A stretch of DNA of 24,000 bases. Source: Pyrinomonadaceae bacterium (GTDB taxonomy: Bacteria > Acidobacteriota > Blastocatellia > Pyrinomonadales > Pyrinomonadaceae). This document shows, piece after piece, positions 3,341 through 23,094 of this stretch. The DNA is taken from contig DASVQI010000006.1 in the NCBI GenBank assembly GCA_036389255.1, forward strand, positions 260,852-284,851, in the 5' to 3' direction. The notes below the pieces were generated by a model. It was not told where the DNA came from. It did no database searches and was given only the letters and a program-made list of their open reading frames with translations. The stretch's first letter is position 1, and each line of letters begins with the position of its first letter. The translations under genes were made by a program, and so were the position numbers.

Positions 3341-3589
3341 CGCTCTGGCTTGCCTGCTCCTTGACGGTTGCCGTGGTTGCCGAAGCATCGGCGCCTTCAG
3401 TAAGGACGCCGCTTGACGACCGAACTTCGATAATATCACGTGCGCGCGAATGCGCGACAATTTCGGGCAAAAAATTGTGGGCTTCAGGAAGCGCCCGATT
3501 GCTTGACAGCCATTTTGTAGGCCACCTATCCTTCCCGGCGAGCCCTCAGGCGTGAGGACTCGCACTCCTTCTTTATTCGACATGAAGTC

Positions 3590-4105: not shown

Positions 4106-4498
4106 GAGAGTGTGGCTAGCCTGACGGCCCCGGCCTCCTTCTCACCTTCTGTTCTCACAAGCTGCCGCACACTTCGGAGGTAATGGTCAAAGACATCACT
4201 AAGCCTGAAAATCTTGAGTTTGATGTGAAGCAAATACGTTACGTCTGGAGGACAGAAAAGGCTGCGCGTCGTAGATTTAAGTAAGATAGTTTGGGCATAG
4301 CATCCGAACGGCAGGTCTAGGCGCGCCAGTTAAATCACTTCCTACGAATGCTGGCTGGATTTCCAATCCACCCACGCTGCGCCGCATCTGAAATTCGCTA
4401 TAGCGATGGCAAGACCGATTGGTGGCCGCAGCCTGCATGTAGCGACTTCACTGGGATTTGGTAGTAAAGCTTAGTATTTGGTAACATGCATCACTCGT

Positions 4499-4542
4499 GG
4501 AGAGGTCGCATAGTGGATTAGTGCACCGGTCTCGAAAACCGG
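4499..4542 (+). tRNA. tRNA-Ser(CGA)-like 5' half only; no recognisable variable arm, T arm or 3' acceptor strand follows
   Basis: GGAGAGG-TC-GCAT-AGTGGATTA-GTGC-A-CCGGT-CTCGAAA-ACCGG has exact tRNA geometry through position 43 (7+2+4+9+4+1+5+7+5 nt). It has U33, anticodon CGA at 4533-4535 and A37. The next ~100 nt hold no GGTTCGAAT-like T loop and no CCTCTCC acceptor complement. Confidence 0.5.
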
Positions 4543-4607
4543 TGACCGCGTTCTTAGTGACGACCGGAAATTATCAAAATCCCCAGCATTTCAAGCATCG
4601 CGGCAGG

Positions 4608-5687
4608 TCATACGGCTTGCCGTTTTTGCTTTTGTGACCAGATTGTGACCACTTTTCTGGCGGGCTTTTTGAGCGCAGCCACGGCCTTGCGCTTGCGCTC
4701 GTCCGTCACGTGCGTATAACGCTTCGTCATCTCCAGAGTCGAGTGACCCATCAACTCCGCTATGGTGAAAGCGTCAACGCCCGCGTCCGCCAGACGGCTG
4801 GCGAAAGTGTGCCGCAGGTCGTGAAAGTGGAAGTTTAAGACCTTCGCGTCTTCACAAGCCTTTCCGAAACTGTTCCTCAGATTGCGTAGTCGCGCGCCCG
4901 TGCGCGGACTCACAAAGACGAACTCGCTCTCTGACTTCTTTTGTTGCCGTAGCAGTACGTCACGAGTTGCGTCGTTTAGAGGAATGATACGGCTCTTACC
5001 GGTCTTCGTGTTGATGACGTGGATGAAGTTTCTAGACCAGTCAACTTCAGACCAACGCAAGGAGAAGATTTCTCCACGCCTGAGTCCAGTGTTGAGCGCG
5101 AAGATAACCACAGACCGCAAAAGCTCTCGCCCTCCGATCTGCTTCATCAGCCGCGCCTCTTCGTCCTCGGTCAGGAACCTGATGCGTTCGTTGTCTTCCT
5201 TGAACCGTCTGACTCGGCGGCAAGGATTCTCGCTGATGTGCCCTGCATCAACCGCCAGAGCCATCACGCGCGACAAGATAGTTAGCTCACGATTGACCGT
5301 CGAGGGACTTCGCGCCTCTTCATGCCGTGTCGGGGTCTCGTGTCTCACTTTCTTGAAGCGCTCAACGTCCATCGGGCTGATATCCGCGATACGCTTGGCC
5401 TTGAAATGAGCTTTGATAGTACCGCAAATTAACTCATCATCCCGCCAAGACTTCTTATTAGTCTTCGCCCACGTCATGTACGTTTTGTCAATGAACTCGC
5501 TCAAGCGCGGCGTCTGCTTTTGGGTTTGACCATAAGCAGCACCGAAACACTCAAGCCGCTTGTTGGCTTCGGCCTGTTCAGCCTGCGCCTTCGTGCGCGC
5601 CTCTCTCAGAGAAGCGCGATGCCTAGTCTTGTGTATGTGGCACCGGAAGTCATACCACCAATAACTACCCCGCTTTCTCACTGCCAT
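4608..5687 (-). CDS. tyrosine recombinase / phage-type integrase
   Basis: Contains the Arg-I box LRRGEIFSLRWSEVD and the C-terminal catalytic region FHFHDLRHTFASRLADAGVD...ELMGHSTLEMTKRYTHV (H-x-x-R, H, Y). The start was moved to Met18 (ATG 5687), which has AAGGAG 8 nt upstream. The C-terminal end faces the tRNA fragment. Confidence 0.9.
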   Translation of the reverse strand: MAVRKRGSYWWYDFRCHIHKTRHRASLREARTKAQAEQAEANKRLECFGAAYGQTQKQTPRLSEFIDKTYMTWAKTNKKSWRDDELICGTIKAHFKAKRIADISPMDVERFKKVRHETPTRHEEARSPSTVNRELTILSRVMALAVDAGHISENPCRRVRRFKEDNERIRFLTEDEEARLMKQIGGRELLRSVVIFALNTGLRRGEIFSLRWSEVDWSRNFIHVINTKTGKSRIIPLNDATRDVLLRQQKKSESEFVFVSPRTGARLRNLRNSFGKACEDAKVLNFHFHDLRHTFASRLADAGVDAFTIAELMGHSTLEMTKRYTHVTDERKRKAVAALKKPARKVVTIWSQKQKRQAV

Positions 5688-5873
5688 GCTGGTTGCTCCT
5701 TCCGGTTGCAGCCGCTCGGAGCGGCGAAATAGTAGCATTTACTATCGGATTGTTGAAGGTGTAAGCTGCGCCGCATTTGGCCACGCCCTATCATGCTATT
5801 CAAAAAGTGTATGGTTAAACCCGCACAGGGTTCGACAATCCGGTTGTTGAGCAACAACGTAGATGGAGCATCA

Positions 5874-6086
5874 CTATGCGCTTTCGCTTTTTTGACCCTC
5901 GGTCCACTGTAAAATTTTGTCTAGCCGGAATCGGAGGCTCCCGCCAACACGTTCTACAGGGATCCCGGTTTTTCCCTCGTTAGCTACCCAATCGTAAATG
6001 GTTCGCGGTTTGACGCGGAGTAGTTCCGCCAATTCTTTCAGAGTAAGAAACACGGGTGGGTTATGCCGCGTGCCTGTTAAACTCAT
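5874..6086 (-). CDS. excisionase / AlpA-like helix-turn-helix DNA-binding protein
   Basis: 70-aa ORF directly upstream of the integrase on the same strand. LTLKELAELLRVKPRTIYDWVANEGKTGIPVERVGGSLRFRLDKILQW matches the excisionase-family HTH pattern (T..E.A..L.v...Ti..w...G..P..r.g...rf....i..w). Confidence 0.8.
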   Translation of the reverse strand: MSLTGTRHNPPVFLTLKELAELLRVKPRTIYDWVANEGKTGIPVERVGGSLRFRLDKILQWTEGQKSESA

Positions 6087-7599: not shown

Positions 7600-8478
7600 A
7601 TGTTGACCAGTGTGCCGCCGCAATCAGGACCCCGTCGAATCGAACCTCAAAAGAAATTGAAGAATTATCTGAGCTTTGACCTACTTGAGGATGTGATGTT
7701 ACTGCCGCCCTCCAAGTATGAAGAGATAGTTGAGCGGACGGTAGTCGCCAGGATCGGCCCCCTTGTGGAGTATGCTTACCATCATTACGGTGATGGCGCG
7801 AAACAGTTAAGGCGCCTATCAGACCAGCAGGTAGTCAGCTCATTTACGAGAGCTCTGCAGGTACCTGACCTTTCCATGATGCTGCATGACACATCGCTGC
7901 AGGCCAGACCAATAGAGTTCTGCAAAGTTCCTACAGCAAATGACGGTGTGGAAGAGCCGAACTGGATAGCCTTTTGTATGCGACTAGCTGATGCCGGAGT
8001 GAAAGCCGGACTCACCAAGCAGTTTTCGCAAGCGCTGGCAGGCACCTTCGAGGAGATGACGGGAAATCTGATTGAGCATAGCGAACGTCCCGGCACAGGC
8101 ATAGTCGGATACAGGTGGCGGACGGGAGAATTTGAATATGTGGTGGCAGACGCCGGAATCGGAGTCTTGGATAGCCTGCGTCAGCATAAGGACTATTCCT
8201 GGCTCTCAGATGCCGGGGAGGCGCTGGCGACGGCCGTCTCAGACGGAGAGTCGCGCCATGGCAGAAGACAGCTCCGCGGTTTCGGCTTCCATAGGCTGAT
8301 CTTTAATATCGCCGAGAGAAACAGTTATTTGAGGTTCCGTAGCGGTGATCATAGCTACGCGATTGATGGGACGAAACCCGCGCTATTGAAGAAAACGCAG
8401 CACTGCGCGCACTTCCAAGGCTTCCTAATCTCTGTCGTCAGCAGGCCCCTCAACAAGGAGCTCCTAAATAGCGCTTGA
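7600..8478 (+). CDS. GHKL-superfamily ATPase, SpoIIAB/RsbW-like (anti-sigma Ser-kinase-like) C-terminal domain with an unknown N-terminal domain
   Basis: N-box FEEMTGNLIEHS, G1 box YVVADAGIGVLD and G2 box LRGFGFHRL occur in the canonical order within the last ~150 aa. The first ~140 aa carry no motif I recognise. The start is uncertain (ATG 7600 without an SD). Confidence 0.6.
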   Translation: MLTSVPPQSGPRRIEPQKKLKNYLSFDLLEDVMLLPPSKYEEIVERTVVARIGPLVEYAYHHYGDGAKQLRRLSDQQVVSSFTRALQVPDLSMMLHDTSLQARPIEFCKVPTANDGVEEPNWIAFCMRLADAGVKAGLTKQFSQALAGTFEEMTGNLIEHSERPGTGIVGYRWRTGEFEYVVADAGIGVLDSLRQHKDYSWLSDAGEALATAVSDGESRHGRRQLRGFGFHRLIFNIAERNSYLRFRSGDHSYAIDGTKPALLKKTQHCAHFQGFLISVVSRPLNKELLNSA

Positions 8479-8526
8479 CAGTAATTCTCAGCAATGCCAT
8501 TATGCTCACTGACGGAGGTGAGCATA

Positions 8527-9099
8527 ATGAAACAGCAGATCTTAATTTACGATCTCGGCGGCAAGCTGGAAGTTTTAAGTGGTTTGCCCCGGGGTCAAGC
8601 GCTTTTAGGGAAATTAATCGCGGCTGCCAGGCCGCAGGAAGAACCCACCCCGCTCTTCCTAGACTTCAAAGGGGTGAACGTCGCGACGAGCAGCTTCCTC
8701 CGCTCGGGCATCCTGGGCTTTCGCGACCATTGCATAAGGATGGGTCTCAATCTCTACCCCGTCCTGGCCAATCTCAACGATGAAATTATTGACGATCTGA
8801 AGCTCGTGCTTGAACAGCGCGGTGACGCTTTCGTAGTGTGCAGCCTCAGTGATGACGGGCGGGTCTCGTCCGTCAGGGTCGTCGGCTCGCTGGATGAAAA
8901 GCAGCGACTGACGCTAGAGGCTGTCATTAAAGAAGGGGAGACTGACGCGGCCTCCCTGAAGGAGCAGCACGAGGAGACCGAAAGTATCGGCACTACGGGC
9001 TGGAACAATAGACTTACGTCGCTGGCCGAAAAGGGGCTGGTGGTTGAAGTGAAACGAGGCCGGGGCAAGCTGTACCGCCCAGTCTTGGAGTTTACCTGA
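8527..9099 (+). CDS. STAS-like (DUF4325-type) domain protein with a C-terminal winged-helix DNA-binding domain
   Basis: The start was moved to Met12 (ATG 8527), with GGAGGTG 6 nt upstream. PLFLDFKGVNVATSSFLRSGILGF resembles the DUF4325/STAS core (idf.gv..issSF). The C-terminus TTGWNNRLTSLAEKGLVVEVKRGRGKLYRPV looks like a MarR/ArsR-type wHTH wing. Confidence 0.55.
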   Translation: MKQQILIYDLGGKLEVLSGLPRGQALLGKLIAAARPQEEPTPLFLDFKGVNVATSSFLRSGILGFRDHCIRMGLNLYPVLANLNDEIIDDLKLVLEQRGDAFVVCSLSDDGRVSSVRVVGSLDEKQRLTLEAVIKEGETDAASLKEQHEETESIGTTGWNNRLTSLAEKGLVVEVKRGRGKLYRPVLEFT

Positions 9100-9473
9100 T
9101 GGGCGCAGACTTTATTTCGAAGACGAAGAAAGGCATTCGTAAGGGCTGGGATCGCGAGCGCAGAAGGCTGAGCATCGCTGAGCTGTTTAACCGAATGCCG
9201 GAGAGCATCCGGGCGATCAACGTCACGCCGTTCGAACTCACCAAATTCTGCGAGGGCGACCGCTACGAGTTGAATGTCGAGGAAGGCCGAATCTTCGTCT
9301 ACTCGAACCGGGTGACTATCGGCGTGTGTAAAGAGCCTCCGCGGTCAGTGTTGAAGGCAGTCGCCGCCCTCGGCGGAAAGACCCTGGGACTATTCATAAA
9401 AGTGCGTGAGCACAGTGCCACTGTCGAAGTCGCGGTCTGCTTGGACACTCAATCAAACACACAGGCGGCATAA
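9099..9473 (+). CDS. hypothetical protein (124 aa), third gene of the operon
   Basis: The ATG overlaps the upstream stop (TGATG at 9097-9101), indicating translational coupling. No domain was recognised. Confidence 0.5.
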   Translation: MGADFISKTKKGIRKGWDRERRRLSIAELFNRMPESIRAINVTPFELTKFCEGDRYELNVEEGRIFVYSNRVTIGVCKEPPRSVLKAVAALGGKTLGLFIKVREHSATVEVAVCLDTQSNTQAA

Positions 9474-9476
9474 AAT

Positions 9477-10577
9477 ATGAGTACACGCAAAGACATTGCA
9501 CCACTGCTCTTCCACGACGCCGACAAGCCACTGAGCCTCGGGTGTATCAACTGCCCGGAGCAAGGGATTTGCGGCGGCCTGCGCACTTCAGGGAGCCACT
9601 TCGATTGTCTCGCCTTTTGCGAGTGTGATGACCCCTCTGACTGCCAGTACGTGTGCCCGAATAACCTGGAGAATTACATCGCCAGGTTCCACGAGGTTCA
9701 AGGGTTTGAATTCAACAACGTCCCGAGAGCTCCGGTATTGCCTTATCAGCCGTTTCCTTTTTCGGTGCCGCTCCTTTACCACTCTTCCGGGCGCTTGGGG
9801 CGCTTCGTAACTGACACGGTGGCCATTCCGCTCACTTATCTGCTTGATCGTAAGACCGGGATGCTCAGATACAGCACGCGCGAAGAGCTGACCGAGAGCT
9901 TCGGCTTCGACGATAGAGCGCGCCTGATCATCATGGGCGTTGACCAAGATCAGCCGATTGAAGACTACTGGTCATTCCGGCGCGCAACCCACATCCCGGA
10001 GCAGCTCGCTAGGTTAAAGCCTGATCTGGTGACTGCTCCTAACTACAGCGTGTTTCTGGACTCGCCCAGGTGGGACAATCTTCATAACATGAAGAGAATC
10101 GCCATCTGCTGGAGCGAGCTGGTAGCGGCGGGAATACCGACCTCTCTTCATCTTAATGCCCGAACCGACCGCGATTGGGAACGCTGGACGGAATTCGTCG
10201 TCGAGCGCGACGAGATTCGATCTGTCGCCTTCGAGTATGCAACCGGGGCGGCCCGCCAAGACCGGGGCGAGTGGCATACGGAGAAGCTGGCGGCTCTTGC
10301 CCTGGCCGTGCCGCGAGACCTCCAGATAGTGGTGCGCGGCGGCTACGCTCACTTAGAAAAGCTTTACAGCGCTTTCCACGAAGTGGTCTTTATAGATACG
10401 ACCTCTTTTATGAAGACCATTAACCGTCAAAAACTCACACGGCTGCCCAGCGGGAAGTTGGAATGGCGGCGTGAGGTCATGCCCAATGCACACCCGCTCG
10501 ACGACCTTCTCGAGCATAACGTGCGGGGCTTTTCACGAATGATTTCAGACAAGGTATCTGAGTATCTGAAATTTTGA
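9477..10577 (+). CDS. Cys-rich protein (8-Cys N-terminal cluster) with an alpha/beta C-terminal region weakly reminiscent of DUF4417
   Basis: It starts 3 nt after the upstream stop. The Cys pattern is C23-x2-C-x5-C-x11-C-x3-C-x-C-x5-C-x3-C-P. The run DLVTAPNYSVFLDSPRWDNLHNMKRIAICWSELVAAGIPTSLHLNA resembles, from memory only, the DUF4417 core (pdfSly.d.P...q.yN.yR.r..g..w...Gi.viP...w). Confidence 0.5.
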   Translation: MSTRKDIAPLLFHDADKPLSLGCINCPEQGICGGLRTSGSHFDCLAFCECDDPSDCQYVCPNNLENYIARFHEVQGFEFNNVPRAPVLPYQPFPFSVPLLYHSSGRLGRFVTDTVAIPLTYLLDRKTGMLRYSTREELTESFGFDDRARLIIMGVDQDQPIEDYWSFRRATHIPEQLARLKPDLVTAPNYSVFLDSPRWDNLHNMKRIAICWSELVAAGIPTSLHLNARTDRDWERWTEFVVERDEIRSVAFEYATGAARQDRGEWHTEKLAALALAVPRDLQIVVRGGYAHLEKLYSAFHEVVFIDTTSFMKTINRQKLTRLPSGKLEWRREVMPNAHPLDDLLEHNVRGFSRMISDKVSEYLKF

Positions 10578-10727
10578 AATTTCAACATCTTGGCTTGCCG
10601 ATTAGCGCAGGCATAGGTAAGGGATGATTAGGAGTAAAAGACAAAAGGGGACCAAGATAATGAGCATCATCTTGATGTGCTTTAGTCTCTCTCCGATTAT
10701 TTGGAATCTGTATCATTAGAAATAGCT

Positions 10728-12089
10728 ATGTGGCCTGATAACGAAACTACGCGCGATTTTTTGAACTTCTCGGGCGTCGCCGATACGGTGGCGGAGATCA
10801 TTGTGCAGGCACATGGTAGACCAATTTCGATTGGGGTATCAGGAGCTTGGGGGATTGGCAAGTCCTCACTGATCAAGCTGACGCGCGAATCCTTAACACA
10901 TAGGCCGAAGAAGGAAGGCGAAAGGGAATTCATTTTCGTAGAGTTTAACGCTTGGCTCTATCAAGGCTATGACGACGCACGGGCGGCCCTCATGGAGGTA
11001 ATTGCTACCAAGCTTGAGGAAGAAGCGGAGAAGCGCGAGAAGGCCCTGGATAAAGCAAAATCGCTGTTAAAGCGGGTCAACTGGCTCCGCGTCGCTAAAC
11101 TTACTGCAAGCTCTGCCTTCGCTATCTCGATGGGCTTGCCCCCTGTCGGCCTTCTGGGAGAACTATGGGGGCTCGGCAAGAAAGCGGTGGGCGGCGGTGC
11201 AGACGAAAAGCTTATCGGGGATGCTCAGGCAAAAGTCAGCGAGGCAGGAACGGCAGCAGCGGGCTTGCTTAATCCGAAGGAGGAGACCTCGCCACCGAAA
11301 GAGATACATGCCCTGAGGGAGACGTTTGAAGAGACGCTGGATGAACTCGGCGTAACCTTAGTTGTATTAATTGACGATCTTGACCGCTGTCTTCCGCCTA
11401 CTACAATCTCCACGCTAGAAGCGATTCGACTGTTCCTCTTCTTGCGCAATACGGCGTTCGTGATTGCAGCTGACAACGAAATGATAAAGCACGCGGTACG
11501 CGAACATTTCGTAGGTATTGATGATGACCTTCTAGTTACAAATTACTTTGACAAGCTTATACAGGTTCCAATAAGAGTACCGCCGCTCGGCACGCAAGAA
11601 GTGCGCGCGTACATGATGCTTCTATTCGTCGAGAATAGCGAGTTGAGTGATGAAGTAAAAGAGAAGATTCGGGCCGGCGTAGGTGAACAGTTAAAGCACA
11701 CCTGGCAGGGCAAGAGGGTAGATCGCGCATTTGTACAGACACTTCATGAGTCATTACCCGATGAATTGATCGGCAAGTTCGACACCGCCGACCGCCTCGC
11801 GCCGCTGATGACGTCTGCCTCCGGCATCGTCGGAAATCCGCGACTGATTAAGCGCTTCTTGAATGCACTAGCGATACGGATGACTATATCTAACGCGCAA
11901 GGGGTTGGAGTGGACGAGGCCGTGCTCGCAAAGATGTTACTTTTCGAGCGACTCGGAGATCAGAGGGCCTACGCCGAATTGATCAAAGCGGTAAGCAGCA
12001 ACGAAGAAGGCAAGCCCGTTTTTCTTGAGGAATGGGAAGAAAAGGCTAACGCGGGTGAACCACTTAAGTTGGATTCGCCTTGGGAATGA
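10728..12089 (+). CDS. qatA: KAP-family P-loop NTPase, QatA-like (N-terminal ~450 aa; reading frame breaks at 12087)
   Basis: Walker A is VSGAWGIGKSSL. The KAP-type Walker B is LVVLIDDLDRCLP, and NPRLIKRFLN is also present. ATG 10728 (MWPDNETTRDFL...) was preferred over TTG 10701. It is the first gene of a KAP / unknown / QueC-like / TatD-like operon. Confidence 0.8.
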   Translation: MWPDNETTRDFLNFSGVADTVAEIIVQAHGRPISIGVSGAWGIGKSSLIKLTRESLTHRPKKEGEREFIFVEFNAWLYQGYDDARAALMEVIATKLEEEAEKREKALDKAKSLLKRVNWLRVAKLTASSAFAISMGLPPVGLLGELWGLGKKAVGGGADEKLIGDAQAKVSEAGTAAAGLLNPKEETSPPKEIHALRETFEETLDELGVTLVVLIDDLDRCLPPTTISTLEAIRLFLFLRNTAFVIAADNEMIKHAVREHFVGIDDDLLVTNYFDKLIQVPIRVPPLGTQEVRAYMMLLFVENSELSDEVKEKIRAGVGEQLKHTWQGKRVDRAFVQTLHESLPDELIGKFDTADRLAPLMTSASGIVGNPRLIKRFLNALAIRMTISNAQGVGVDEAVLAKMLLFERLGDQRAYAELIKAVSSNEEGKPVFLEEWEEKANAGEPLKLDSPWE

Positions 12090-12600
12090 TACTTTCGTGC
12101 AGGAATGGCTCACCCTGCCGCCGCGACTAGCTGATTTGGATTTACGAGGTGCGTTATACGTTAGCCGTGAGCACGCGCCATTAATTACGCCAGAGGACCG
12201 CCTCTCGTCCGAGGCTGCCGAACTGCTTACGGCCCTGCTTCAGGAACCTGACATGGCTGAGAGCCTCAATGACCGGCTCGTTAAAGTTTCACGGGCGGAA
12301 ATCACTTTGATCATGGACCGGTTGCTTGACCGAGCTCGCCAGGAGCAGGAGTGGGGAGTGCCACCAATACTGGAGGCATGCCTCGCTGTATCAGAGGCCG
12401 ACCCTTCACAAGGCTCTCGCCTGGCAGCATTCCTTAGTGAAAGACCGCCGACGCAAATTAGGCCTAGCATTGTCCCCATGATCGGTGACCAGCCATGGGC
12501 AGCCGGGGTCTTCAGGACTTGGGAACGGGCGGAAGTATCGCGTCCCGTAAAAAATGCCATAAAGCGCAGGAGGGAAGATGGGAACATCTCAGTCCAGTAA
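12088..12600 (+). CDS. qatA: C-terminal continuation of the QatA-like ATPase in the +1 frame (apparent frameshift, or a separate small ORF)
   Basis: ORF 12025..12600 overlaps the end of the KAP ORF by 65 nt in the +1 frame. Its ATG at 12025 has no properly spaced SD. Reading ...DSPWE then skipping T12087 continues as DTFVQEWLTLPP... The combined length of roughly 620-630 aa is about what I recall for QatA proteins. Confidence 0.5.
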   Translation, partial: DTFVQEWLTLPPRLADLDLRGALYVSREHAPLITPEDRLSSEAAELLTALLQEPDMAESLNDRLVKVSRAEITLIMDRLLDRARQEQEWGVPPILEACLAVSEADPSQGSRLAAFLSERPPTQIRPSIVPMIGDQPWAAGVFRTWERAEVSRPVKNAIKRRREDGNISVQ

Positions 12601-14712: not shown

Positions 14713-15446
14713 TTGACCTGCACTGTCATCTAGACCTCTATCCGGATCCTTATCAAGTGGCCAAGGAGTGTCAGGAACGTAGTCTCTACGTGCTGTCGGT
14801 GACAACTACTCCATCTGCATGGGGTGGAACTACCGCACTCGCCGCCGGCGCGCAGCGGATCCGAACGGCACTCGGGCTTCACCCGCAATTAGCCCATCAG
14901 CGTAAAAGTGAGTTGGCTCTTTTCGAGCGGCTATTACCCGAAACGCGTTATGTAGGCGAGGTAGGGTTAGACGGCGGGCCAGAGTACAAACGCTATTGGA
15001 GTGATCAGGTAACAGTTTTCGAGCGAATACTTGCCGCCTGTCGCTCAGCTGGCGGACGTGTGCTGTCAGTCCATAGCCGAAGGGCAAGCGCCGCAGTACT
15101 AGACCATCTACAAAAGGCTCCCGGTGCCGGCACCGCAGTACTTCACTGGTTCTCAGGCTCAGTACGCGACCTGGAGCGCGCAGTAGATATGGGGTGTTGG
15201 TTCAGCGTAGGACCCGCCATGCTGACTGGAGAGAAAGGACGAGCGCTGATTGCGCGTATGCCTCCGGATAGAGTGTTGACCGAGACAGATGGGCCGTTTG
15301 TAAAAGTGGAGGGCAGGGCCGCGTATCCTTGGGACGCCTCTCTGGTTATTAAAGGATTAGCGGCACTTTGGAATATACCCCAGCATGAAGCTGAACATTC
15401 ACTTCGAGCCAATCTACGCCGTCTCACTTCCACTCAGGAGCGTTAA
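14709..15446 (+). CDS. qatD: TatD-family metal-dependent hydrolase/DNase, QatD-like
   Basis: TatD motifs occur in order: MIDLHCHLD (HxH), GEVGLDG, VLSVHSR, VLHWFSG, LTETDGPF. The GTG start overlaps the qatC stop (GTGA at 14709-14712). Confidence 0.9.
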   Translation: MIDLHCHLDLYPDPYQVAKECQERSLYVLSVTTTPSAWGGTTALAAGAQRIRTALGLHPQLAHQRKSELALFERLLPETRYVGEVGLDGGPEYKRYWSDQVTVFERILAACRSAGGRVLSVHSRRASAAVLDHLQKAPGAGTAVLHWFSGSVRDLERAVDMGCWFSVGPAMLTGEKGRALIARMPPDRVLTETDGPFVKVEGRAAYPWDASLVIKGLAALWNIPQHEAEHSLRANLRRLTSTQER

Positions 15447-15451
15447 CATCA

Positions 15452-18313
15452 GTGAATATACCACCTCGATTGAGCGCCCTTTTACATAAAGATGACAACT
15501 TAACAGGCGCTGTGCTTCACGCTATCAGCGTTGTCAGACCGTGGTTTGAAGACAACAAATTGGTCTTTTTCCACGGGTACACCGACCACGGCCCGAAGCA
15601 CATTCAAGAAGTCTTTGATACGGCCGAATTCCTAATTACGGAAAGCGCCTGGAAGATATTGAATCCCAAGGACGTGGCGGTTCTAATTCTGGGGATAATT
15701 CTCCATGACTGCGCCATGCACCTCAGTGAGGACGGATTCATAACGCTTATCAATGACGACTCACGCCCCCTCAACGAAGGTTTCGGGGATCAGCCGTGGC
15801 CGCGGCTGTGGAATGACTTCATGGCGGAGGCCAGACGCTTCGACGATAGAAAGCTGAAGGCCCTCTTCGACGACGTGAAGCCAGTGCGGGTGCCTCCGCT
15901 AGATCCGCTTATGATGACCCAGCGGGACCGGTTTTTAATCGGCGAATTCCTCCGCCAGCACCACCCGCGCCTCGCGCATGAGATCGCCGTGATGGGAGTG
16001 CCGGGGCCGCCCGACAAAGGACTTTCACTGGGTGACATCCCTTCCGATGTCAGAGATCTGGCCGGGCTCGTGGCTCGAAGTCACGGGCTTGACCTGCGAG
16101 TGTCCGTCGATTATTTGAATGATAAAGGCAAGTGGGGGGCACGCAGGACGGCCGGGGTGCACGTCACTTACCTCATGGTCTTAGTGCGGATTGCGGACTA
16201 CCTCCAGATTCATAGCACCCGCGCCCCGCGGGAAGTGTTACAGGTGCGTTCTCTCCGAAGTCCCGTATCCCGAGGTGAGTGGGATGCCCACGGAGACATA
16301 ATCGACATCCATCCTGAGACAGACGACCCGGAGGCCATTTGGGTCGAGGCCAAGCCGAAGGATGTAAAGACCTACCTTAAACTGAAATATTTGTTAACTG
16401 ATATCCAGAGGGAGATGGACGAGTCGTGGGCCGTGCTCGGCGAGGTCTACGGCCCTAAAGAAGACCTCAGAGGATTCGGGATCAGTCTCCGGCGCATCAG
16501 ATCTAACATTCAGGATGTCGACTCCTTCGCCAGAAGCGTAGATTATGTCCCTAAGCATGCGGCGCTTCAAACCGCCGGGGTAGACCTTCTTAAGCTGCTC
16601 ATCACGCCACTGTACGGTGACAGGCCGGAAATGGGGGTTAGGGAGTTGCTCCAGAATGCCGTCGATGCCTGCCTCGAGCTGGAGGATTATCTGGGCAAAA
16701 ATCCGCCGTTGCCTCGACCCGATCTCCAGGAGCAGAGCGCCGACGTGGCCATCTCAATTACGGAGAAAGAAGACGGAACGAAATGGCTGAGCGTGAGCGA
16801 CCGCGGGATAGGTATGACTGTCGACACAATACTAAACTATTTTTTGAAGGCAGGCGCCTCCTTTCGCTTTAGCCATGCCTGGCGCCGGCAGCACGAAGAC
16901 GAGCAGGGACAGACGCAGGTATTACGCTCCGGCCGCTTCGGAATAGGCATTCTGGCAGGGTTCTTATTGGGTAATGAGATCCACGTCTCCACTCGCCACG
17001 TGACTGCGCGGCACGATGAAGGGATAAGCTTCGTCTGCCGCCTCGAGGACGAAACGCTACAACTCGATCGCACCTCCAGACCCGTCGGTACAACGGTGTC
17101 AATACAGCTCCCTGAAGCCGTATTCCGTAAGCTAGCGAAAGACTGCTTCAACTGGCATGGGTACATTTTTGAAGAGCCGGCGTTCAGTTGGTATTGGTAT
17201 TGTCTTGAAAAGCCGTCGGCCCATTTCTTAATACAAGACCGCATAGTAAAGCAGACTTATGTGTTGCCGTCGGCTGATTCAGACCTCCCGCCGGAATGGA
17301 GGAGGGTACGACACCCGGACTTTCGAGACATCCACTGGACGTACTTGGGAAGTGCGCTGCCGTTAACGTGTAACGGGATCGCCGTAATAGATTTAAGTAA
17401 AGAAGATGATGAAGAGGATGATGAAGAGAATGACTTTGGCGGGGAAGAATTTACCCGTCCTAGATTATCAATATTTGATCCGAACGGGGCTCTACCGCTG
17501 AACCTTCAAAGGACATGCCTTTCCGTGAAAAAGCTGCCGTTCGAGGCCGAGTTGGTTAAAGACATATGCTACGACATACTGGCCTTTATGCTCGTGCGCA
17601 CGCCCAGTAGAAGGCCGTCCATGAGCGGGCAAAATGCCAAGCGTAACGTGCTTAAGGCCGAACACCTAAGCCATCCCGGGGCCGACACTGATGGCTGGAT
17701 ATTATTCACCCGCGAAGGTCTTGCGTTGCTGGAATTGTGGGACATTCAGAATCCGGGAGTGCCGGAAATATACGCGCTCACCAGCAGGCGGTTACTCGCC
17801 GTGCTCGGAAATAAATCGTTCAGACCACATATACCTTTCTTCGGCGAGAAGGAGTTGGAAAACATACTGAGCGGGAGGCCTGGTATTGGCGGGGCTGGGA
17901 TCAAAGGCAGTAGGGTGATCCTACACAAGCGTAAGGTTCCCTCGCTGACTCAACGTAGTCCTCGTCACCGGAAGAATGAGTTTCTCGAAAGTAAGTTAAG
18001 AGAGTTGTGGCACAAGGAGTGGGAGAATGACACGTGGCTCTTAATGAAGCGTGGCGACTGTCCGCCGCAGGAACTGAAGCCGGATAAGCTTCCTCTCGAA
18101 GAGGGCTCTGACCCCGCAGAGTTTTTGACAATTATCTACCCTGGGGAACTGCCAGGAGGAAATAGCTTGTTGGCAGAAACCTGGCGTGAGACCATGGACT
18201 TGCCTTATATCCCCTACGACTTAGAAAAAAGGCGCGAACTCTTATCCAGTGCCTACCGTAGGTTGGCTTCATACGTGCAAGCATGGGAACAACTCGGATT
18301 AAGTCGGAAGTGA
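15452..18313 (+). CDS. HD-domain phosphohydrolase fused to an Hsp90/MORC-like GHKL ATPase (953 aa)
   Basis: The N-terminus carries HD-superfamily residues (YTDHGPKH...LGIILHDCAMH...RQHHPRLAHE...VARSHG...LVRIADYLQ). The centre carries a GHKL Bergerat fold: N-box VRELLQNAVDA, G1 VSDRGIGMT, G2 RSGRFGIGILAGF. GTG 15452 lies 5 nt after the qatD stop, with AGGAG 11 nt upstream. Confidence 0.75.
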   Translation: MNIPPRLSALLHKDDNLTGAVLHAISVVRPWFEDNKLVFFHGYTDHGPKHIQEVFDTAEFLITESAWKILNPKDVAVLILGIILHDCAMHLSEDGFITLINDDSRPLNEGFGDQPWPRLWNDFMAEARRFDDRKLKALFDDVKPVRVPPLDPLMMTQRDRFLIGEFLRQHHPRLAHEIAVMGVPGPPDKGLSLGDIPSDVRDLAGLVARSHGLDLRVSVDYLNDKGKWGARRTAGVHVTYLMVLVRIADYLQIHSTRAPREVLQVRSLRSPVSRGEWDAHGDIIDIHPETDDPEAIWVEAKPKDVKTYLKLKYLLTDIQREMDESWAVLGEVYGPKEDLRGFGISLRRIRSNIQDVDSFARSVDYVPKHAALQTAGVDLLKLLITPLYGDRPEMGVRELLQNAVDACLELEDYLGKNPPLPRPDLQEQSADVAISITEKEDGTKWLSVSDRGIGMTVDTILNYFLKAGASFRFSHAWRRQHEDEQGQTQVLRSGRFGIGILAGFLLGNEIHVSTRHVTARHDEGISFVCRLEDETLQLDRTSRPVGTTVSIQLPEAVFRKLAKDCFNWHGYIFEEPAFSWYWYCLEKPSAHFLIQDRIVKQTYVLPSADSDLPPEWRRVRHPDFRDIHWTYLGSALPLTCNGIAVIDLSKEDDEEDDEENDFGGEEFTRPRLSIFDPNGALPLNLQRTCLSVKKLPFEAELVKDICYDILAFMLVRTPSRRPSMSGQNAKRNVLKAEHLSHPGADTDGWILFTREGLALLELWDIQNPGVPEIYALTSRRLLAVLGNKSFRPHIPFFGEKELENILSGRPGIGGAGIKGSRVILHKRKVPSLTQRSPRHRKNEFLESKLRELWHKEWENDTWLLMKRGDCPPQELKPDKLPLEEGSDPAEFLTIIYPGELPGGNSLLAETWRETMDLPYIPYDLEKRRELLSSAYRRLASYVQAWEQLGLSRK
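17405..17428 (+). repeat. perfect in-frame 12-bp tandem duplication GATGATGAAGAG x2 (encodes DDEE-DDEE)
   Basis: Read directly from the sequence: 17405-17416 is identical to 17417-17428. It lies inside the acidic stretch SKEDDEEDDEENDFGGEEF of the HD-GHKL protein. Confidence 0.9.
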
Positions 18314-18446: not shown

Positions 18447-19145
18447 ATGCTGGCTGTAGTTAAATGTGTCGTATGCAGACAAGAGGCGTTTGTCAGAGAC
18501 TCATATCAGTCCGGTCAGTATACCTGCCTTACTTTGAGCTGCGGCTGTGAAAATGTTCTTTGTCCGACCTATAACAAGCCCTCCTCCAATGTCACGTACG
18601 CAGAAGGAGAATATTTTCTTCTTTGCGATGAGTGTGACAAAGATGCTGCCGGTTTTGATTTCCCCGAAGAGCCAGAGACAGAAGAAACGTTTCAGTTCCA
18701 GCAAAGGTCAAGATATGTCAGCCCCACCTGGCGAAAGATGAACCGCGCTTATTCGTTGGATGACCTGCGGAAAGAGCACCCCCGCGCATACTTAAAATGG
18801 ACTGAGGATGAGAAAATTGCTCTTTTTACTCTACGCAACCAAGGCAAAACGAATGCTGAATTAGATGCGATTTTTCTACGACAGCCCGGTGTAACTAGAC
18901 TCCCGGAGTCAGAGCGATTTGTTCCCGATTCCGCCGCCATATATTTGCTGGGCGAGAAAATTACCTGTGGTACCTGTCAACATGAAGCTATTCTTACATA
19001 CCTCCACCTGGAAAAAGTTGCTCAGCATCTAAAGCTGAAAGTACTGGATATGAGCAAAGAGATGATTCTGGAAGTTATGAGAGCCTCTTTCAAATGTACT
19101 CAATGCAAATCAAAAAGCGTAACTATTGAAAATGATCTCGCGTAA
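18447..19145 (+). CDS. double zinc-ribbon protein with a central Myb/SANT-like helix-turn-helix segment (hypothetical)
   Basis: A strong SD (GAGGAGGAGG) precedes ATG 18447. The N-terminus has CxxC...C.C....C plus CDEC, and the C-terminus has CGTC...CTQC. The middle segment is YLKWTEDEKIALFTLRNQGKTNAELDAIF. Confidence 0.6.
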   Translation: MLAVVKCVVCRQEAFVRDSYQSGQYTCLTLSCGCENVLCPTYNKPSSNVTYAEGEYFLLCDECDKDAAGFDFPEEPETEETFQFQQRSRYVSPTWRKMNRAYSLDDLRKEHPRAYLKWTEDEKIALFTLRNQGKTNAELDAIFLRQPGVTRLPESERFVPDSAAIYLLGEKITCGTCQHEAILTYLHLEKVAQHLKLKVLDMSKEMILEVMRASFKCTQCKSKSVTIENDLA

Positions 19146-20109
19146 AAGTGCCAGATTATTAGCGGAAGCCTATGATAGTGCGTTTTCAGACGTAACCACT
19201 GAAACTCAGCGCACTTCATCAAAATATGGTGTCCTTGCTGGTATCTCTGAAATACCTGAATCAGAATATGACGGAACAAAACAGATAGAACATTACCAAT
19301 TACGCGTCGAAGATTTATATGAATTTCTTTACGATGAAGACTACGAGCCCTGGTTTTTAGGGATTTTCAGAGACATAACTAACACCATTAATAAGACAAT
19401 ATTGAAGCAGCGGCTAATGTTCCTTCATACAGGAGAATTATTCTGCCTGTTCTCCGGGCCGCATAAAACAGAAAGCGAGGAGGAGAGACAGAAGGCGGGG
19501 CAGAAGTATATGAAAGAGTTGGCCCAATCTCTTTTTAAGCTATACGAGTCTGACCCTTCAATAATACCGGCTAGAGCAAATGAGAAAATTGATAAGTTAA
19601 AATCCCAGCTAGAGCTTGATGGCTATATCTATAGGAATGGTACTCTTTACCCTACAGAAAGTTCTGTGATCGATGAAACCGAGGAACAGAGTTATTTAGA
19701 GCTTCTGGTTGTTCAGTCTAATTTACAAGACCATGCTGTTATTAAACACCATATTCGATTAGCAGAAGAGGCTTATGCTAATAAAAGGTGGAGTGATAGC
19801 ATTTCGAACGCCAGAAATTTCCTGGAGGCAATCCTTGAACAAGTTTCTCATGCCCTACACACTAAAAATGCTCTAACGAACCAACCTCCGAACCGCCCTC
19901 TAGCGGTCCGTGACTTTTTAGAGCAGCAAGGTTTTATAGATCAGACAGAAAAAGAAGCGATATCCAAAGTATATGGGTTGATTAGTAATACCGGGTCTCA
20001 TCCTAATATTGCCGAGAAAGATCAGGCCCGATTAATGAGACACTTGGCCCTAACCTTCAGCCAATTTATGCTTTTACGTTGGGAAGGGTATTTGAAGAAT
20101 AATCCATAA
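19132..20109 (+). CDS. hypothetical protein with an Abi_C/HEPN-like C-terminal domain
   Basis: ATG 19132 overlaps the upstream gene by 14 nt. The C-terminal ~120 aa (RWSDSISNARNFLEAILEQVSHAL...ISKVYGLISNTGSHPN...DQARLMRHLALTFSQFML) fit my memory of the Abi_C consensus (A...ar.alEs.lk.i...l..lrN..g.aH....A.....la..l..fl). Confidence 0.5.
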   Translation: MISRKSARLLAEAYDSAFSDVTTETQRTSSKYGVLAGISEIPESEYDGTKQIEHYQLRVEDLYEFLYDEDYEPWFLGIFRDITNTINKTILKQRLMFLHTGELFCLFSGPHKTESEEERQKAGQKYMKELAQSLFKLYESDPSIIPARANEKIDKLKSQLELDGYIYRNGTLYPTESSVIDETEEQSYLELLVVQSNLQDHAVIKHHIRLAEEAYANKRWSDSISNARNFLEAILEQVSHALHTKNALTNQPPNRPLAVRDFLEQQGFIDQTEKEAISKVYGLISNTGSHPNIAEKDQARLMRHLALTFSQFMLLRWEGYLKNNP

Positions 20110-21463: not shown

Positions 21464-21549
21464 GTCTGGCAACGCTCCGTCGCCGACTTCGCTTCTTATT
21501 ATATAGCTGGTTAGAAAAGTAAGATTGGTAGTTCTCTGTGAAGGCGGAA

Positions 21550-23094
21550 ATGAAAAGAAAGCCGGTAGTATTTCTGAGTTCGGTTTTCCGGGACTTAAAG
21601 CAACACCGTGACCGGATTTACCGCATTATTACCGAGGAGTTTGGCTGGGAATGTAATGCGTACGAATCCCATAGCGAAGAATATGTCGGTTCGACCGAAA
21701 AAGCTTGCCTCAACAAAGTAGAAGCCTGCGACTTATTTATTGGTGTTTTCTGGAAGCACTCGGGTTCCGTGATCCCTCACGACAACGTGTACATCACCGA
21801 AATGGAATATTACCGCGCACGGAATTTGCGAAAGCCTATGAGGATGTATGTGGTAAACGCAGGGCCTGAGGATGCAGATGCAGATCTGGAATATTTTATA
21901 AAGTCAATGATGGAGCCCGATAACGGGCTATGCATCGAATTCTGTAAAGACTTTCATGAACTGATCACCAAGCTAAAGAAAGGTTTAGATTATTTTGGCG
22001 ATTGTTGGGAAAAGGGAGACGTAGCTCATTGGGTACCTAGTTTCCTCATCGACAAAATCCTGAAGGACCGTGGATTTCTCATAGAAAACTCAGAGTTATA
22101 CCGTCTGCCAAGGCGGGCGCAGGTTATGGCTGGGCCGGTTGACATGAGGCACTTCCGCCGGAAAGTCGAACTCATGCGTAGCGATTATGAGCGCTCTGAG
22201 TTTCAAAGGGCGGGGGAAATAGGTTCTGAATTATTACTGGATTTCCTAAACGCCGGCATATCGTTTGAGAAGAAAGAACTCCTCCCCCTGTGGACTGATT
22301 TTCTCCGAATGTGGGCAGGTACTTGCACTTGGTTGAATATCTTGAACGTGCCCTACGGTGGAGTTTGGGCGGCCAGAATATTAAGAGAGACTTACCAGGC
22401 ACAGGAGCATTGGGCCTCTTTTCATGATTCAGCCTCTCTTCTTTCTCACGTCCATTATGTTCAGGCATGCTCTACAAAAGATGAGAGCCTGTTTATGGGC
22501 GTGCGTCCGACACGTAGAAAAAGATTTCAGGATGAGAGGCGCGCGATAATTAGCATTCAGGCAGGGCTGGAAGAGAAACGGCAGCAATTATTACGAAAGG
22601 CATTGGATTATGACAAAATGTTTGTGACGCGGTCCAAGCCGAAGTACCTGTATCTTTATCGAGCGTACATCTACCAAGTTATGGGCGACTATGAACAAGC
22701 GATTTCAGACTTCGAGCGGATGATATATTACTATCAAGAATCTTCAGATGATTTCAGTTACATAAATACCTTGGCCGATTTCGGCGGCACTAAAGTTCTG
22801 AGAGCGATAAACGACAAAGTATCTAAATCGACGAAGTCTAAGTTAATAAAAGATGGATTGCGTTCCTTACAGAAAGCGCATGAGAGAGTGCAAATGTATT
22901 CCGCTCCTCAATGGCTTCCTTATCGCCTCATTATCGAGAAGGAATACGCGAAGGGCTTGCTCTTGTCAGGAGATAAAGAAACCGCAGGGAGTTTGCTGGC
23001 TGGCTTGTATCAGACCGCTGTGATTGAAGGTCTCTCTCAACAAGCCGGAAGCATAGGTATTCTGCTGGATAAAAGCAGAGATCTTCTTCCCTGA
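21550..23094 (+). CDS. DUF4062 (TIR/nucleoside-deoxyribosyltransferase-like) N-terminal domain protein with a C-terminal TPR-like helical repeat region
   Basis: PVVFLSSVFRDLKQHRDRIYRIITE...VEACDLFIGVFWKHSGSV...ITEMEYYRARNLRKPMRMYVV closely follows the DUF4062 consensus (vFiSStfrDl.eeR..v...i.....cDlfv.i...rYGs...S.TE.Ey..A...gkp.l.f). The C-terminus has TPR-like units (YRAYIYQVMGDYEQAISDFERMIYYY). No P-loop is present. ATG 21550 was preferred over GTG 21538. Confidence 0.65.
   Translation: MKRKPVVFLSSVFRDLKQHRDRIYRIITEEFGWECNAYESHSEEYVGSTEKACLNKVEACDLFIGVFWKHSGSVIPHDNVYITEMEYYRARNLRKPMRMYVVNAGPEDADADLEYFIKSMMEPDNGLCIEFCKDFHELITKLKKGLDYFGDCWEKGDVAHWVPSFLIDKILKDRGFLIENSELYRLPRRAQVMAGPVDMRHFRRKVELMRSDYERSEFQRAGEIGSELLLDFLNAGISFEKKELLPLWTDFLRMWAGTCTWLNILNVPYGGVWAARILRETYQAQEHWASFHDSASLLSHVHYVQACSTKDESLFMGVRPTRRKRFQDERRAIISIQAGLEEKRQQLLRKALDYDKMFVTRSKPKYLYLYRAYIYQVMGDYEQAISDFERMIYYYQESSDDFSYINTLADFGGTKVLRAINDKVSKSTKSKLIKDGLRSLQKAHERVQMYSAPQWLPYRLIIEKEYAKGLLLSGDKETAGSLLAGLYQTAVIEGLSQQAGSIGILLDKSRDLLP

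What the first reader, a model, noticed from the sequence alone, without database searches (positions are those of the whole stretch)
15452..18313. 953-aa HD-phosphohydrolase/Hsp90-like GHKL fusion appended 5 nt after qatD
The N-terminal third has the H...HD...H...D residues of HD-superfamily metal-dependent phosphohydrolases and nucleases. The centre has a Bergerat fold with the Hsp90/MORC/sacsin-type N-box (ELLQNAVDA), DRGIGM and GRFGIGI. About 350 further residues match nothing I recognise. The gene starts 5 nt after the Qat operon's last stop, on the same strand, with no visible terminator between. It may therefore be a fifth, non-canonical Qat component or an independent single-gene defence candidate. 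I know of no named defence system built on an HD plus Hsp90-like GHKL architecture, though MORC-like GHKL proteins and HD nucleases each recur separately in conflict systems.
Basis: partly seen in the sequence, partly recalled or inferred. Interest (0 to 1): 0.7.

Follow-up and report, generated by a model that had tools for sequence, protein, structure and literature searches.

The report
Stand-alone HD–Hsp90 fusion beside Qat
The 953-residue gene is a real fusion of a metal-dependent phosphohydrolase ("HD-CE") to an Hsp90-type ATPase; it belongs to a widespread single-gene family already flagged by computation as a likely anti-phage system, and it only happens to sit next to the Qat operon here.

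Summary
ORF 15452..18313 (+) is intact and starts 5 nt after qatD. It has an N-terminal HD domain (Pfam HD-CE, E 3e-43) and a central Hsp90-type ATP-binding domain.

About 220 of the "unrecognised" residues form an Hsp90-like middle domain carrying the catalytic-arginine loop (LPLNLQR, R687 invariant). The last ~170 residues remain unassigned.

The gene is not a Qat component:
- None of 81 other homologue loci searched for Qat genes carries one.
- No neighbouring gene family is conserved across loci.
- The 83–85 % identical homologues lie after a SMODS–SLATT pair or on a conjugative element.
- qatA in this window is frameshifted, while the HD–Hsp90 gene is under purifying selection (dN/dS 0.18).

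The family has one fixed architecture, over 1000 clusters at 50 % identity, and a patchy spread over more than ten phyla.

The domain name HD-CE comes from a 2023 computational paper. As I recall it (the paper was not readable here), it proposed Hsp90-coupled nucleotide-degrading effectors, so this is a new member of a predicted, untested kind.

Defence context is clear for the closest clade but weak for the wider family. The most likely mechanism is an ATP-driven Hsp90 clamp that switches on the HD effector. This is inferred, not shown.

The parts
15436..15440 (+). Shine-Dalgarno-like AGGAG, 11 nt before the GTG start, inside the end of qatD
   Evidence: Read directly from the sequence
15452..18313 (+). 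Whole HD-CE-Hsp90 gene, 953 codons plus stop
   Evidence: Full-length homologues of 944-1038 aa. dN/dS 0.18 against the 94 % identical sister locus L085.
15569..16420 (+). HD-CE phosphohydrolase domain, aa 40-323 (predicted effector)
   Evidence: Pfam PF24391, E 3e-43. Invariant H46, H50, H85, H90, H171, H211, H237, D249 and many invariant Arg. D86 is near-invariant in that set and invariant. AF2 model pLDDT 82, all-helical core.
15704..15721 (+). H85-D86-C-A-M-H90, the HD signature
   Evidence: H85 and H90 invariant in 57 sequences, D86 at least 90 %; all three invariant in the 18-sequence alignment
16562..17119 (+). Hsp90-type ATP-binding (Bergerat fold) N domain, aa 371-556
   Evidence: HtpG N domain by phmmer, profile and hhalign. 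NCBIfam HtpG/HSP90 models E 4e-18.
16640..16669 (+). N-box RELLQNAVDA, aa 397-406 (catalytic Glu398, Mg-binding Asn402)
   Evidence: R397, E398, Q401, N402, D405 and A406 invariant
17120..17791 (+). Hsp90-like middle domain, aa 557-780
   Evidence: Foldseek aligns 380-420 columns to N plus M of TRAP1/Hsp90/HtpG, E 1e-9, TM 0.45-0.59 normalised to N-M fragments. Not detectable by sequence alone.
17477..17512 (+). Catalytic-loop motif D676-P-N-G-A-L-P-L-N-L-Q-R687
   Evidence: D676, P682 and R687 invariant in 57 sequences. Matches HtpG D-S-S-D-L-P-L-N-V-S-R336.
17792..18310 (+). C-terminal domain of unknown fold family, aa 781-953 (possible dimerisation or trigger-binding part)
   Evidence: Modelled with mostly high confidence but no PDB sequence match. 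Most divergent part of the protein: 20 % identity to distant members and dN/dS 0.32. Still one homologous family (146 of 150 tails).

Best explanation
The gene encodes a self-contained, single-protein conflict (probably anti-phage) module. It is independent of Qat, and in this island it has simply landed at the 3' end of the Qat operon, from which it is probably co-transcribed.

Anatomy:
- an N-terminal HD-CE metal-dependent phosphohydrolase, the effector;
- an Hsp90-paralogous ATPase made of an ATP-binding N domain and a middle domain carrying the catalytic arginine;
- a fast-evolving C-terminal domain.

Proposed working, by analogy with Hsp90:
1. The protein is a dimer held together through its C-terminal part.
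2. A trigger (a phage protein, or another infection-induced 'client') binds the middle/C-terminal region.
3. This promotes ATP-dependent closure of the N-terminal clamp.
4. Because each HD domain is attached directly in front of an ATP-binding domain, closure brings the two HD domains together or releases them, switching on hydrolysis.
5. The substrate is most probably free nucleotides (NTP/dNTP or a related phosphate-rich nucleotide), so replication of the invader and growth of the cell stop.

Shown here: the domain anatomy, the conservation of all catalytic residues of both enzymes, the fixed architecture, the independence from Qat, and purifying selection.

Inferred: the defence role, the dimeric clamp switch, the trigger and the substrate.
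For: Anatomy and catalytic residues.

Independence from Qat:
- No Qat homologue in the 81 other loci searched by tblastn.
- No conserved neighbour family; the largest covers 9 of 79 loci and is generic.
- Neighbours are often on the other strand or more than 100 nt away.
- No conserved small ORF downstream.

Fixed architecture: all 91 complete proteins among the best 150 matches to the M+C profile carry HD-CE plus the Hsp90 N domain. The 41 without an HD match are truncated fragments.

Accessory-gene behaviour:
- Patchy spread over Acidobacteriota, Myxococcota, Verrucomicrobiota, Chloroflexota, Planctomycetota, Proteobacteria, Cyanobacteria, Bacteroidota, Firmicutes and others.
- The window gene lies in an integrase-bounded, low-GC island with Qat, a DUF4062 protein and a methyltransferase.
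- 83-85 % identical homologues lie 115 nt after SMODS+AGS_C / SLATT_4 pairs, among CHAT, HTH-Peptidase_M78, AAA_15/21, HNH and integrase genes, or on an element with a relaxase and ParA.

Functional state: the gene is intact and under purifying selection (dN/dS 0.18) although qatA next door is frameshifted.

Conservation pattern: enzymatic domains 52-54 % identical to distant members, middle domain 29 %, C-terminal domain 20 %. This is the pattern expected of a conserved engine with a diverging recognition part.

Literature: the sister '-CE' effector, Calcineurin-CE, was defined in the same 2023 paper as a nucleotide-targeting effector. It has since been shown experimentally to deplete dNTPs in a working defence system (PMC12871103). 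A DnaK-like chaperone domain fused to defence effector modules is reported in PMC12642450. From memory only: the abstract of Nicastro et al. 2023 states that HSP90- and HSP70-related modules act as analogues of STAND NTPases coupled to such effectors.
Against: No experiment exists for any member that I could find.

PADLOC-DB 2.0.0 has no model for it.

Outside the closest clade the neighbourhoods are mostly housekeeping-looking, with few recognisable defence genes:
- 236 neighbours of about 50 loci;
- Corallococcus, an Acidobacteriota MAG and others.
I have no background control, so defence-island enrichment is not demonstrated.

No homologue was found on PLSDB plasmids or in phage genomes.

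The HD domain has no significant structural neighbour in the PDB. The best hit is the HD-like C-terminal part of an exopolyphosphatase (E 0.1), followed by phosphodiesterases and Rel/SpoT. The substrate is therefore a guess.

Dimerisation and clamp closure were not modelled.
Confidence: 0.5

Rival explanations
1. Fifth, non-canonical component of the Qat system. The HD-Hsp90 protein would work with QatABCD, for example as an extra effector or as a chaperone for the Qat complex.
For: The gene starts 5 nt after qatD on the same strand, with no terminator or promoter signal between them. The same arrangement with the same spacing occurs in the 94 % identical sister locus L085.
Against: None of 81 other homologue loci searched has a Qat gene within 10 kb. 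Homologues 83-85 % identical follow a SMODS-SLATT pair or stand on another mobile element. PADLOC's Qat definition has four genes and no model matches this protein. In the window qatA is broken by a 1-nt insertion while the HD-Hsp90 gene stays intact under purifying selection.
Confidence: 0.04
2. Same stand-alone defence module, but the HD domain is a nuclease that cuts DNA or RNA (as in Cas3-type HD nucleases) rather than a nucleotide hydrolase.
For: HD domains include nucleases (established knowledge of the superfamily). There are many invariant arginines around the site: R129, R133, R168, R173, R216, R246, R257. GHKL ATPases fused to nucleases are proven defence proteins, for example VcSduA, a GHKL plus PD-(D/E)xK Shedu (PMC12137116).
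Against: There is no detectable similarity to Cas3 or other HD nucleases. The weak profile and fold matches are all to small-molecule phosphohydrolases: cyclic-nucleotide phosphodiesterases, an Ap4A hydrolase, an exopolyphosphatase and Rel/SpoT. The family was named as a nucleotide-targeting effector (title of the source paper seen; its content from memory). No nucleic-acid-binding domain was recognised.
Confidence: 0.2
3. Not an immune protein: a specialised Hsp90 paralogue used in stress physiology or signalling. Examples would be a chaperone-gated hydrolase of an alarmone, polyphosphate or second messenger, carried as an accessory gene by soil bacteria with large genomes.
For: Most neighbourhoods of distant members look metabolic or regulatory, with few defence genes. 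The locus is stable in three Corallococcus exiguus assemblies. The best, though insignificant, fold matches are exopolyphosphatase and Rel/SpoT hydrolases. No plasmid or phage copies were found.
Against: There is no conserved neighbourhood at all, which argues against a pathway role. Distribution is patchy, with 35-45 % identity across unrelated phyla. The closest clade is always on mobile elements or next to known defence systems. The C-terminal part evolves fast.
Confidence: 0.2

Closest known systems
HD-CE effector family (Pfam PF24391) and the HSP90-coupled effector systems predicted by Nicastro, Burroughs, Iyer and Aravind, Nucleic Acids Res 2023, 51:11479
   Same: The N-terminal domain scores 148.9 bits on the HD-CE model. 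One homologue is named 'HD-CE domain-containing protein' in UniRef. The fusion to an Hsp90-type ATPase is, as I recall the abstract, one of the themes of that paper.
   Different: Nothing known to differ. I could not read the paper, so I cannot say whether this exact clade, its middle-domain arginine loop or its C-terminal domain were described. No experimental test of any member was found.
HtpG / Hsp90 / TRAP1 chaperones
   Same: ATP-binding N domain with all Bergerat motifs. Middle domain of the same fold carrying the LPLN-x-x-R catalytic loop.
   Different: It reaches only 65 bits on the HtpG equivalog models, whose cutoffs are 371 and 455. It has a 370-residue HD extension in front. Its C-terminal ~170 residues did not align to the Hsp90 C-terminal domain in the fold search. 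It is an accessory, patchily distributed gene rather than a universal one.
VcSduA, a type I-D Shedu (GHKL ATPase fused to a DUF4263 PD-(D/E)xK nuclease), Vibrio cholerae (PMC12137116)
   Same: A single polypeptide joining a GHKL ATPase with a clamp-like middle domain to a hydrolytic effector. Both active sites are needed for defence in VcSduA. It is the nearest experimentally proven analogue of the proposed logic.
   Different: The effector is a nuclease at the C terminus, not an HD domain at the N terminus. There is no DUF4263 here. The GHKL domain here is specifically Hsp90-like.
STAND NTPase sensors (Avs, bNACHT)
   Same: The proposed logic is the same: a conserved NTPase switch, an N-terminal effector and a diverging C-terminal recognition part.
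   Different: Unrelated fold: a GHKL dimeric clamp rather than a P-loop oligomerising NTPase. Here the C-terminal part is one homologous family, not a swap of sensor domains.
PUA-Calcineurin-CE-HAD system of E. coli ECOR28 (PMC12871103)
   Same: It carries an effector from the same '-CE' set. It has been shown to deplete dNTPs and abort infection, which is a precedent for the predicted chemistry.
   Different: The catalytic fold differs (calcineurin-like, not HD). So does the sensor (a PUA domain binding m6-dAMP). It is a multi-gene system that forms filaments.

Membership tests
HD-CE (Pfam PF24391) | Score above the family's gathering threshold over the whole model | tested here: met
   148.9 bits against 27; model positions 1-262 of 263 matched to aa 40-323
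HD-CE (Pfam PF24391) | HD-superfamily metal ligands (H...HD...D) present and conserved | tested here: met
   H46, H50, H85, H90, H171, H211, H237 and D249 invariant in 57 sequences; D86 at least 90 % there and invariant in the 18-sequence set
HD-CE (Pfam PF24391) | Nucleotide-degrading activity | not testable with these tools
   Needs biochemistry. Fold and profile searches give only weak similarity to small-molecule phosphohydrolases.
Hsp90 family (paralogue level) | Bergerat-fold N domain with N-box, G1 and G2 motifs | tested here: met
   E398/N402/D405, D450-x-G-x-G and G494-R-F-G-I-G invariant. HtpG N domain at hhalign probability 98.7 %.
Hsp90 family (paralogue level) | Middle domain supplying the catalytic arginine loop | tested here: met
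   Fold alignment of 380-420 columns to N plus M of TRAP1/Hsp90. LPLNLQR with invariant R687 against LPLNVSR336 of HtpG. The aligned residue ranges of the fold hits were not shown, so the correspondence of the loop rests on the motif and its spacing.
Hsp90 family (paralogue level) | C-terminal dimerisation domain | tested here: inconclusive
   Full-length Hsp90 targets align over only about 400 columns. Residues 781-953 have no sequence match. No multimer model was made.
HtpG (orthologue, NCBIfam NF003555 / NF010683) | Score above the equivalog cutoff | tested here: not met
   64.9 and 65.1 bits against cutoffs of 371 and 455; only model positions about 5-176 are matched. The source annotation 'molecular chaperone HtpG' is therefore wrong.
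QatABCD system | Regular co-occurrence with QatA-D | tested here: not met
   Qat lies next to the gene only in the window (identical to L001/L002) and in L085. None of 81 other loci searched has it.
QatABCD system | Match to a Qat protein model | tested here: not met
   No Qat model hits the protein. Its only PADLOC hit is a weak GHKL match to a restriction enzyme, E 0.005.
MORC / paraMORC GHKL ATPases | GHKL domain closest to the MORC/MutL type | tested here: not met
   All of the best 60 PDB sequence matches and all 50 best fold matches are Hsp90-family proteins. The Hsp90-type catalytic loop is present.
Shedu (type I-D, GHKL-DUF4263) | DUF4263 PD-(D/E)xK nuclease domain | tested here: not met
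   No such Pfam or PADLOC hit
HSP90-coupled effector systems (Nicastro et al. 2023) | Effector domain of the '-CE' set fused or linked to an HSP90-related module | tested here: met
   Architecture shown. The published definition itself could not be read, so the match is to my recollection of the abstract.

The most novel reading that the evidence does not exclude
An Hsp90 paralogue has been turned into an innate immune receptor. Its middle and C-terminal 'client' surface would recognise a phage protein or a folding state typical of infection. The ATP-driven N-terminal clamp would then act as the switch that pairs two HD-CE domains and triggers nucleotide depletion. This would be a chaperone-derived counterpart of STAND/NLR sensors, encoded in one gene that can be tested directly.

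A weaker add-on is that its repeated docking at the 3' end of other systems (Qat, SMODS-SLATT) reflects use as a back-up layer expressed from their promoters.
Probability: 0.3. Interest if true: 0.7.

Novelty: new member of a known kind. Interest (0 to 1): 0.4.

Why it matters
If the proposed working is right, the family would show that bacteria use the Hsp90 clamp, and not only P-loop STAND or ABC ATPases, as the switch of an immune sensor. It would also add an HD enzyme to the growing set of defence effectors that starve viruses of nucleotides.

The family is compact (one gene), has two obvious active sites to mutate, and is conserved in over 1000 sequence clusters, so it is a convenient test case.

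For annotation, many members are mislabelled 'molecular chaperone HtpG'. This gene should also not be counted as part of Qat.

Tried and rejected
1. Qat linkage. tblastn with the window's QatA-D against 81 other homologue loci found nothing.
2. A conserved partner gene. All-against-all clustering of 1421 neighbour ORFs found none. Small ORFs 2-3 nt downstream in three loci are unrelated and low-complexity. DUF6788 follows the gene only in L086 and L087.
3. Effector swapping on the same Hsp90 module. The middle-plus-C-terminal profile run against 1.84 billion representatives gave only the HD-CE architecture. The apparent HD-less hits are N-terminally truncated fragments.
4. Alternative sensor domains at the C terminus. 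The tails form one homologous family.
5. Assigning the HD domain to a characterised subfamily. There was no significant PDB sequence or fold hit and no viral fold hit.
6. Seeing the middle domain by sequence. phmmer, hmmsearch, hhalign and a 53-residue peptide search all failed. Only the fold search and the motif show it.
7. Plasmid and phage copies. None by tblastn.
8. Literature on an experimentally tested HD-Hsp90 defence protein. None found. The key 2023 paper is not held.
10. Defence enrichment of the wider family. Only aggregated PADLOC and Pfam counts on 236 neighbours were possible, without a background control, so the result is descriptive.
Full report
**What is in the sequence**

ORF 15452..18313 on the + strand encodes 953 residues from a GTG start. 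The qatD stop codon ends at 15446, so the gap is 5 nt, and an AGGAG sits 11 nt before the start. Homologues begin with the same M/V-x-I-P residues, which fixes the start.

PADLOC recognises the four genes upstream as QatA, QatB, QatC and QatD, but has no model for the 953-residue protein. No promoter-like or terminator-like signal separates it from qatD. Co-transcription with Qat is therefore the simplest reading for this locus.

**Domains**

- Residues 40-323 match Pfam HD-CE (PF24391) end to end at E 3e-43.
- Residues 371-556 are an Hsp90-type ATP-binding domain. E. coli HtpG is the best solved relative (E 1e-12 as a single sequence, 1.6e-18 as a profile, hhalign probability 98.7 %). The NCBIfam HtpG and HSP90 models match only their first ~170 positions, far below their cutoffs.
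- In an alignment of 57 full-length homologues the histidines and aspartate expected of an HD site are invariant (H46, H50, H85, H90, H171, H211, H237, D249). D86 is conserved in at least 90 % of the 57 and invariant in the 18-sequence set.
- The ATPase motifs are also invariant: E398/N402/D405, D450-x-G-x-G and G494-R-F-G-I-G.

Both enzymes therefore look active.

**The 'unrecognised' C-terminal part**

An AlphaFold2 model built on that alignment is confident (mean pLDDT 84, pTM 0.75). Foldseek against the PDB returns only Hsp90-family structures, aligned over 380-420 columns. The TM-score is 0.45-0.59 when normalised to TRAP1 N-plus-middle fragments. The match therefore runs beyond the 186-residue N domain into the middle domain.

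I fetched E. coli htpG. Its catalytic loop is D-S-S-D-L-P-L-N-V-S-R336-E. The family has S-V-F-D-P-D-G-x-L-P-L-N-L-Q-R687-T, with D676, P682 and R687 invariant, at a similar distance after the N domain. That this arginine is the one that contacts ATP in Hsp90 is established knowledge, not something tested here. Sequence methods alone do not see this domain.

Residues ~781-953 remain unassigned. They are the most divergent part of the protein (20 % identity to distant members, against 52-54 % for the two enzymatic domains). They are nevertheless homologous across the family (146 of 150 tails in one cluster).

**The HD domain on its own**

A separate model of residues 1-370 (pLDDT 82) has no significant structural neighbour in the PDB. 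The best hit is the HD-like C-terminal region of an exopolyphosphatase (E 0.1), followed by cyclic-nucleotide phosphodiesterases and Rel/SpoT hydrolases. A sequence profile finds only weak matches around the HD motif, to phosphodiesterases and an Ap4A hydrolase. There is no viral match. The substrate cannot be read from similarity.

**Is it part of Qat?**

The window is identical to two public assemblies (L001 and L002, 0 mismatches).

- A 94 % identical homologue (L085) has the same Qat-gene arrangement with the same 5-nt spacing.
- Nothing else does. A scan of one genome per species returned 80 further loci from more than ten phyla. None of these, nor L003, has a Qat homologue within 10 kb.
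- Clustering all neighbouring ORFs shows no conserved partner.
- Neighbours are frequently on the other strand or more than 100 nt away.
- Small ORFs directly downstream are unrelated to one another.
- Homologues 83-85 % identical lie 115 nt after a SMODS+AGS_C / SLATT_4 pair in two independent contigs. Another lies on an element with a relaxase and ParA.
- qatA in the window carries a one-base insertion at 12085 that creates a stop, whereas L085 has an intact 623-residue QatA. The HD-Hsp90 gene is intact with dN/dS 0.18 between the two loci.

The gene is an independent unit.

**How big and how uniform is the family?**

The first protein search gave over 1500 hits, with full-length matches at about 40 % identity in Corallococcus, Sorangium, Acidobacteriota and Poribacteria. 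These were annotated variously as 'molecular chaperone HtpG', 'HD domain-containing' or 'HD-CE domain-containing'.

A profile of only the middle and C-terminal parts, run against 1.84 billion cluster representatives, finds 1362 proteins at E<=1e-3 and 1016 at E<=1e-10. Among the best 150, all 91 complete proteins have HD-CE plus the Hsp90 N domain in front. The 41 without HD start inside the N domain and are fragments. This module therefore comes with one effector only.

**Is it a defence gene?**

The window gene lies in an island that begins at a tyrosine integrase (4608..5738, - strand). There the GC content drops from about 0.60 to 0.40-0.56. The island also holds Qat, a DUF4062 protein, a large methyltransferase and several unknowns. 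All five loci of the closest clade are on mobile elements or next to known defence systems.

For distant members the picture is weaker:
- Pfam and PADLOC scans of 236 neighbours from about 50 loci show a mixture dominated by metabolic and regulatory genes, with few defence matches.
- Individually annotated contexts range from mobile-element-like to plainly housekeeping.
- No copy is on a PLSDB plasmid or in a phage genome.

I had no background control. The defence role is plausible, and well supported for this clade, but it is not demonstrated for the family.

**What is already known**

The name HD-CE belongs to a set of effector domains (with Calcineurin-CE) defined by Nicastro, Burroughs, Iyer and Aravind in Nucleic Acids Research 2023. 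The paper, its title and the Calcineurin-CE part are confirmed by a later paper that cites it.

That later paper also shows experimentally that a Calcineurin-CE system depletes dNTPs. The 2023 paper itself is not in the library. From memory, its abstract states that HSP90- and HSP70-related modules serve as analogues of STAND NTPases coupled to these nucleotide-targeting effectors.

A DnaK-like domain fused to defence effector modules is reported independently. A GHKL-nuclease fusion, VcSduA, is a proven single-protein defence in which both active sites are required.

I found no experimental work on an HD-Hsp90 protein.

**Most likely mechanism**

By analogy with Hsp90, I propose:
1. The protein is a dimer joined through its C-terminal part.
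2. A trigger binds the middle/C-terminal surface.
3. ATP-dependent closure of the N-terminal clamp follows.
4. Each HD domain is fused directly in front of an ATP-binding domain, so closure changes the pairing or exposure of the two HD domains and activates hydrolysis. The likely substrate is free nucleotides.

Only the anatomy, the conservation and the independence from Qat are shown. The rest is inference.

Rivals:
- an HD nuclease instead of a nucleotide hydrolase;
- a non-immune stress or signalling role;
- a Qat accessory, with very low probability.

**Verdict**

It is not a Qat component. It is a further member of a computationally predicted, experimentally untested class. Its conceptual interest lies in the use of an Hsp90 clamp as an immune switch. 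It is moderately interesting and a good candidate for a direct test.

Noticed in passing
window 10701..12600 (qatA), insertion at 12085: qatA is split into two ORFs (462 aa and 191 aa) by one extra A (GGGAATGA against GGGATGA in the 93 % identical sister locus L085, where QatA is an intact 623-aa protein). The same base is present in both public assemblies of this locus. The Qat system here is probably inactive or truncated.
   Followed up: yes
window 18447..19145 and 19126..20109 (+): Overlapping two-gene module (232 aa with several CxxC pairs, and 327 aa) with no Pfam, NCBIfam or PADLOC match. It follows the HD-Hsp90 gene in L085 and in L004. In L004 it is 95 % identical although the HD-Hsp90 protein there is only 83 % identical, which suggests recombination within the island. 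Possible unknown defence pair.
   Followed up: partly
window 7600..10577 (+): Four tightly packed genes (292, 201, 124 and 366 aa; the last has a Cys-rich N terminus) between the integrase-side regulators and Qat. None has a match in Pfam, NCBIfam or PADLOC. The sister locus L085 has different genes at this place.
   Followed up: no
window 21538..23094 (+) and beyond the window end (L001 17908..20822): A 518-aa protein with an N-terminal DUF4062 domain. Just outside the window it is followed by a 260-aa unknown and a 711-aa N6/N4 DNA methyltransferase that matches type II and BREX/PglX-like models. This is further defence-island content.
   Followed up: partly
window 4000..6000: Island boundary. 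A tyrosine integrase lies at 4608..5738 (-), next to housekeeping genes (histidine ammonia-lyase 771..2270, DUF2270 membrane protein 2357..3967). GC falls from about 0.60 to 0.40-0.56. No tRNA gene is in the window, so the attachment site is not identified.
   Followed up: partly
L086 7935..12859 and L087 255..5176: Homologues 83-85 % identical to the window protein lie 115 nt after a SMODS+AGS_C nucleotidyltransferase and a SLATT_4 protein, and are followed by a DUF6788 gene. Seen in two independent metagenome contigs. Whether the HD-CE enzyme interacts with the nucleotide signal of that system was not examined.
   Followed up: no
Protein ids P0002, P0003, P0012, P0016 and many others: Many family members are annotated 'molecular chaperone HtpG' by their sources, although they reach only about 65 bits on HtpG models whose cutoffs are 371-455 bits. 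This is a systematic mis-annotation.
   Followed up: yes
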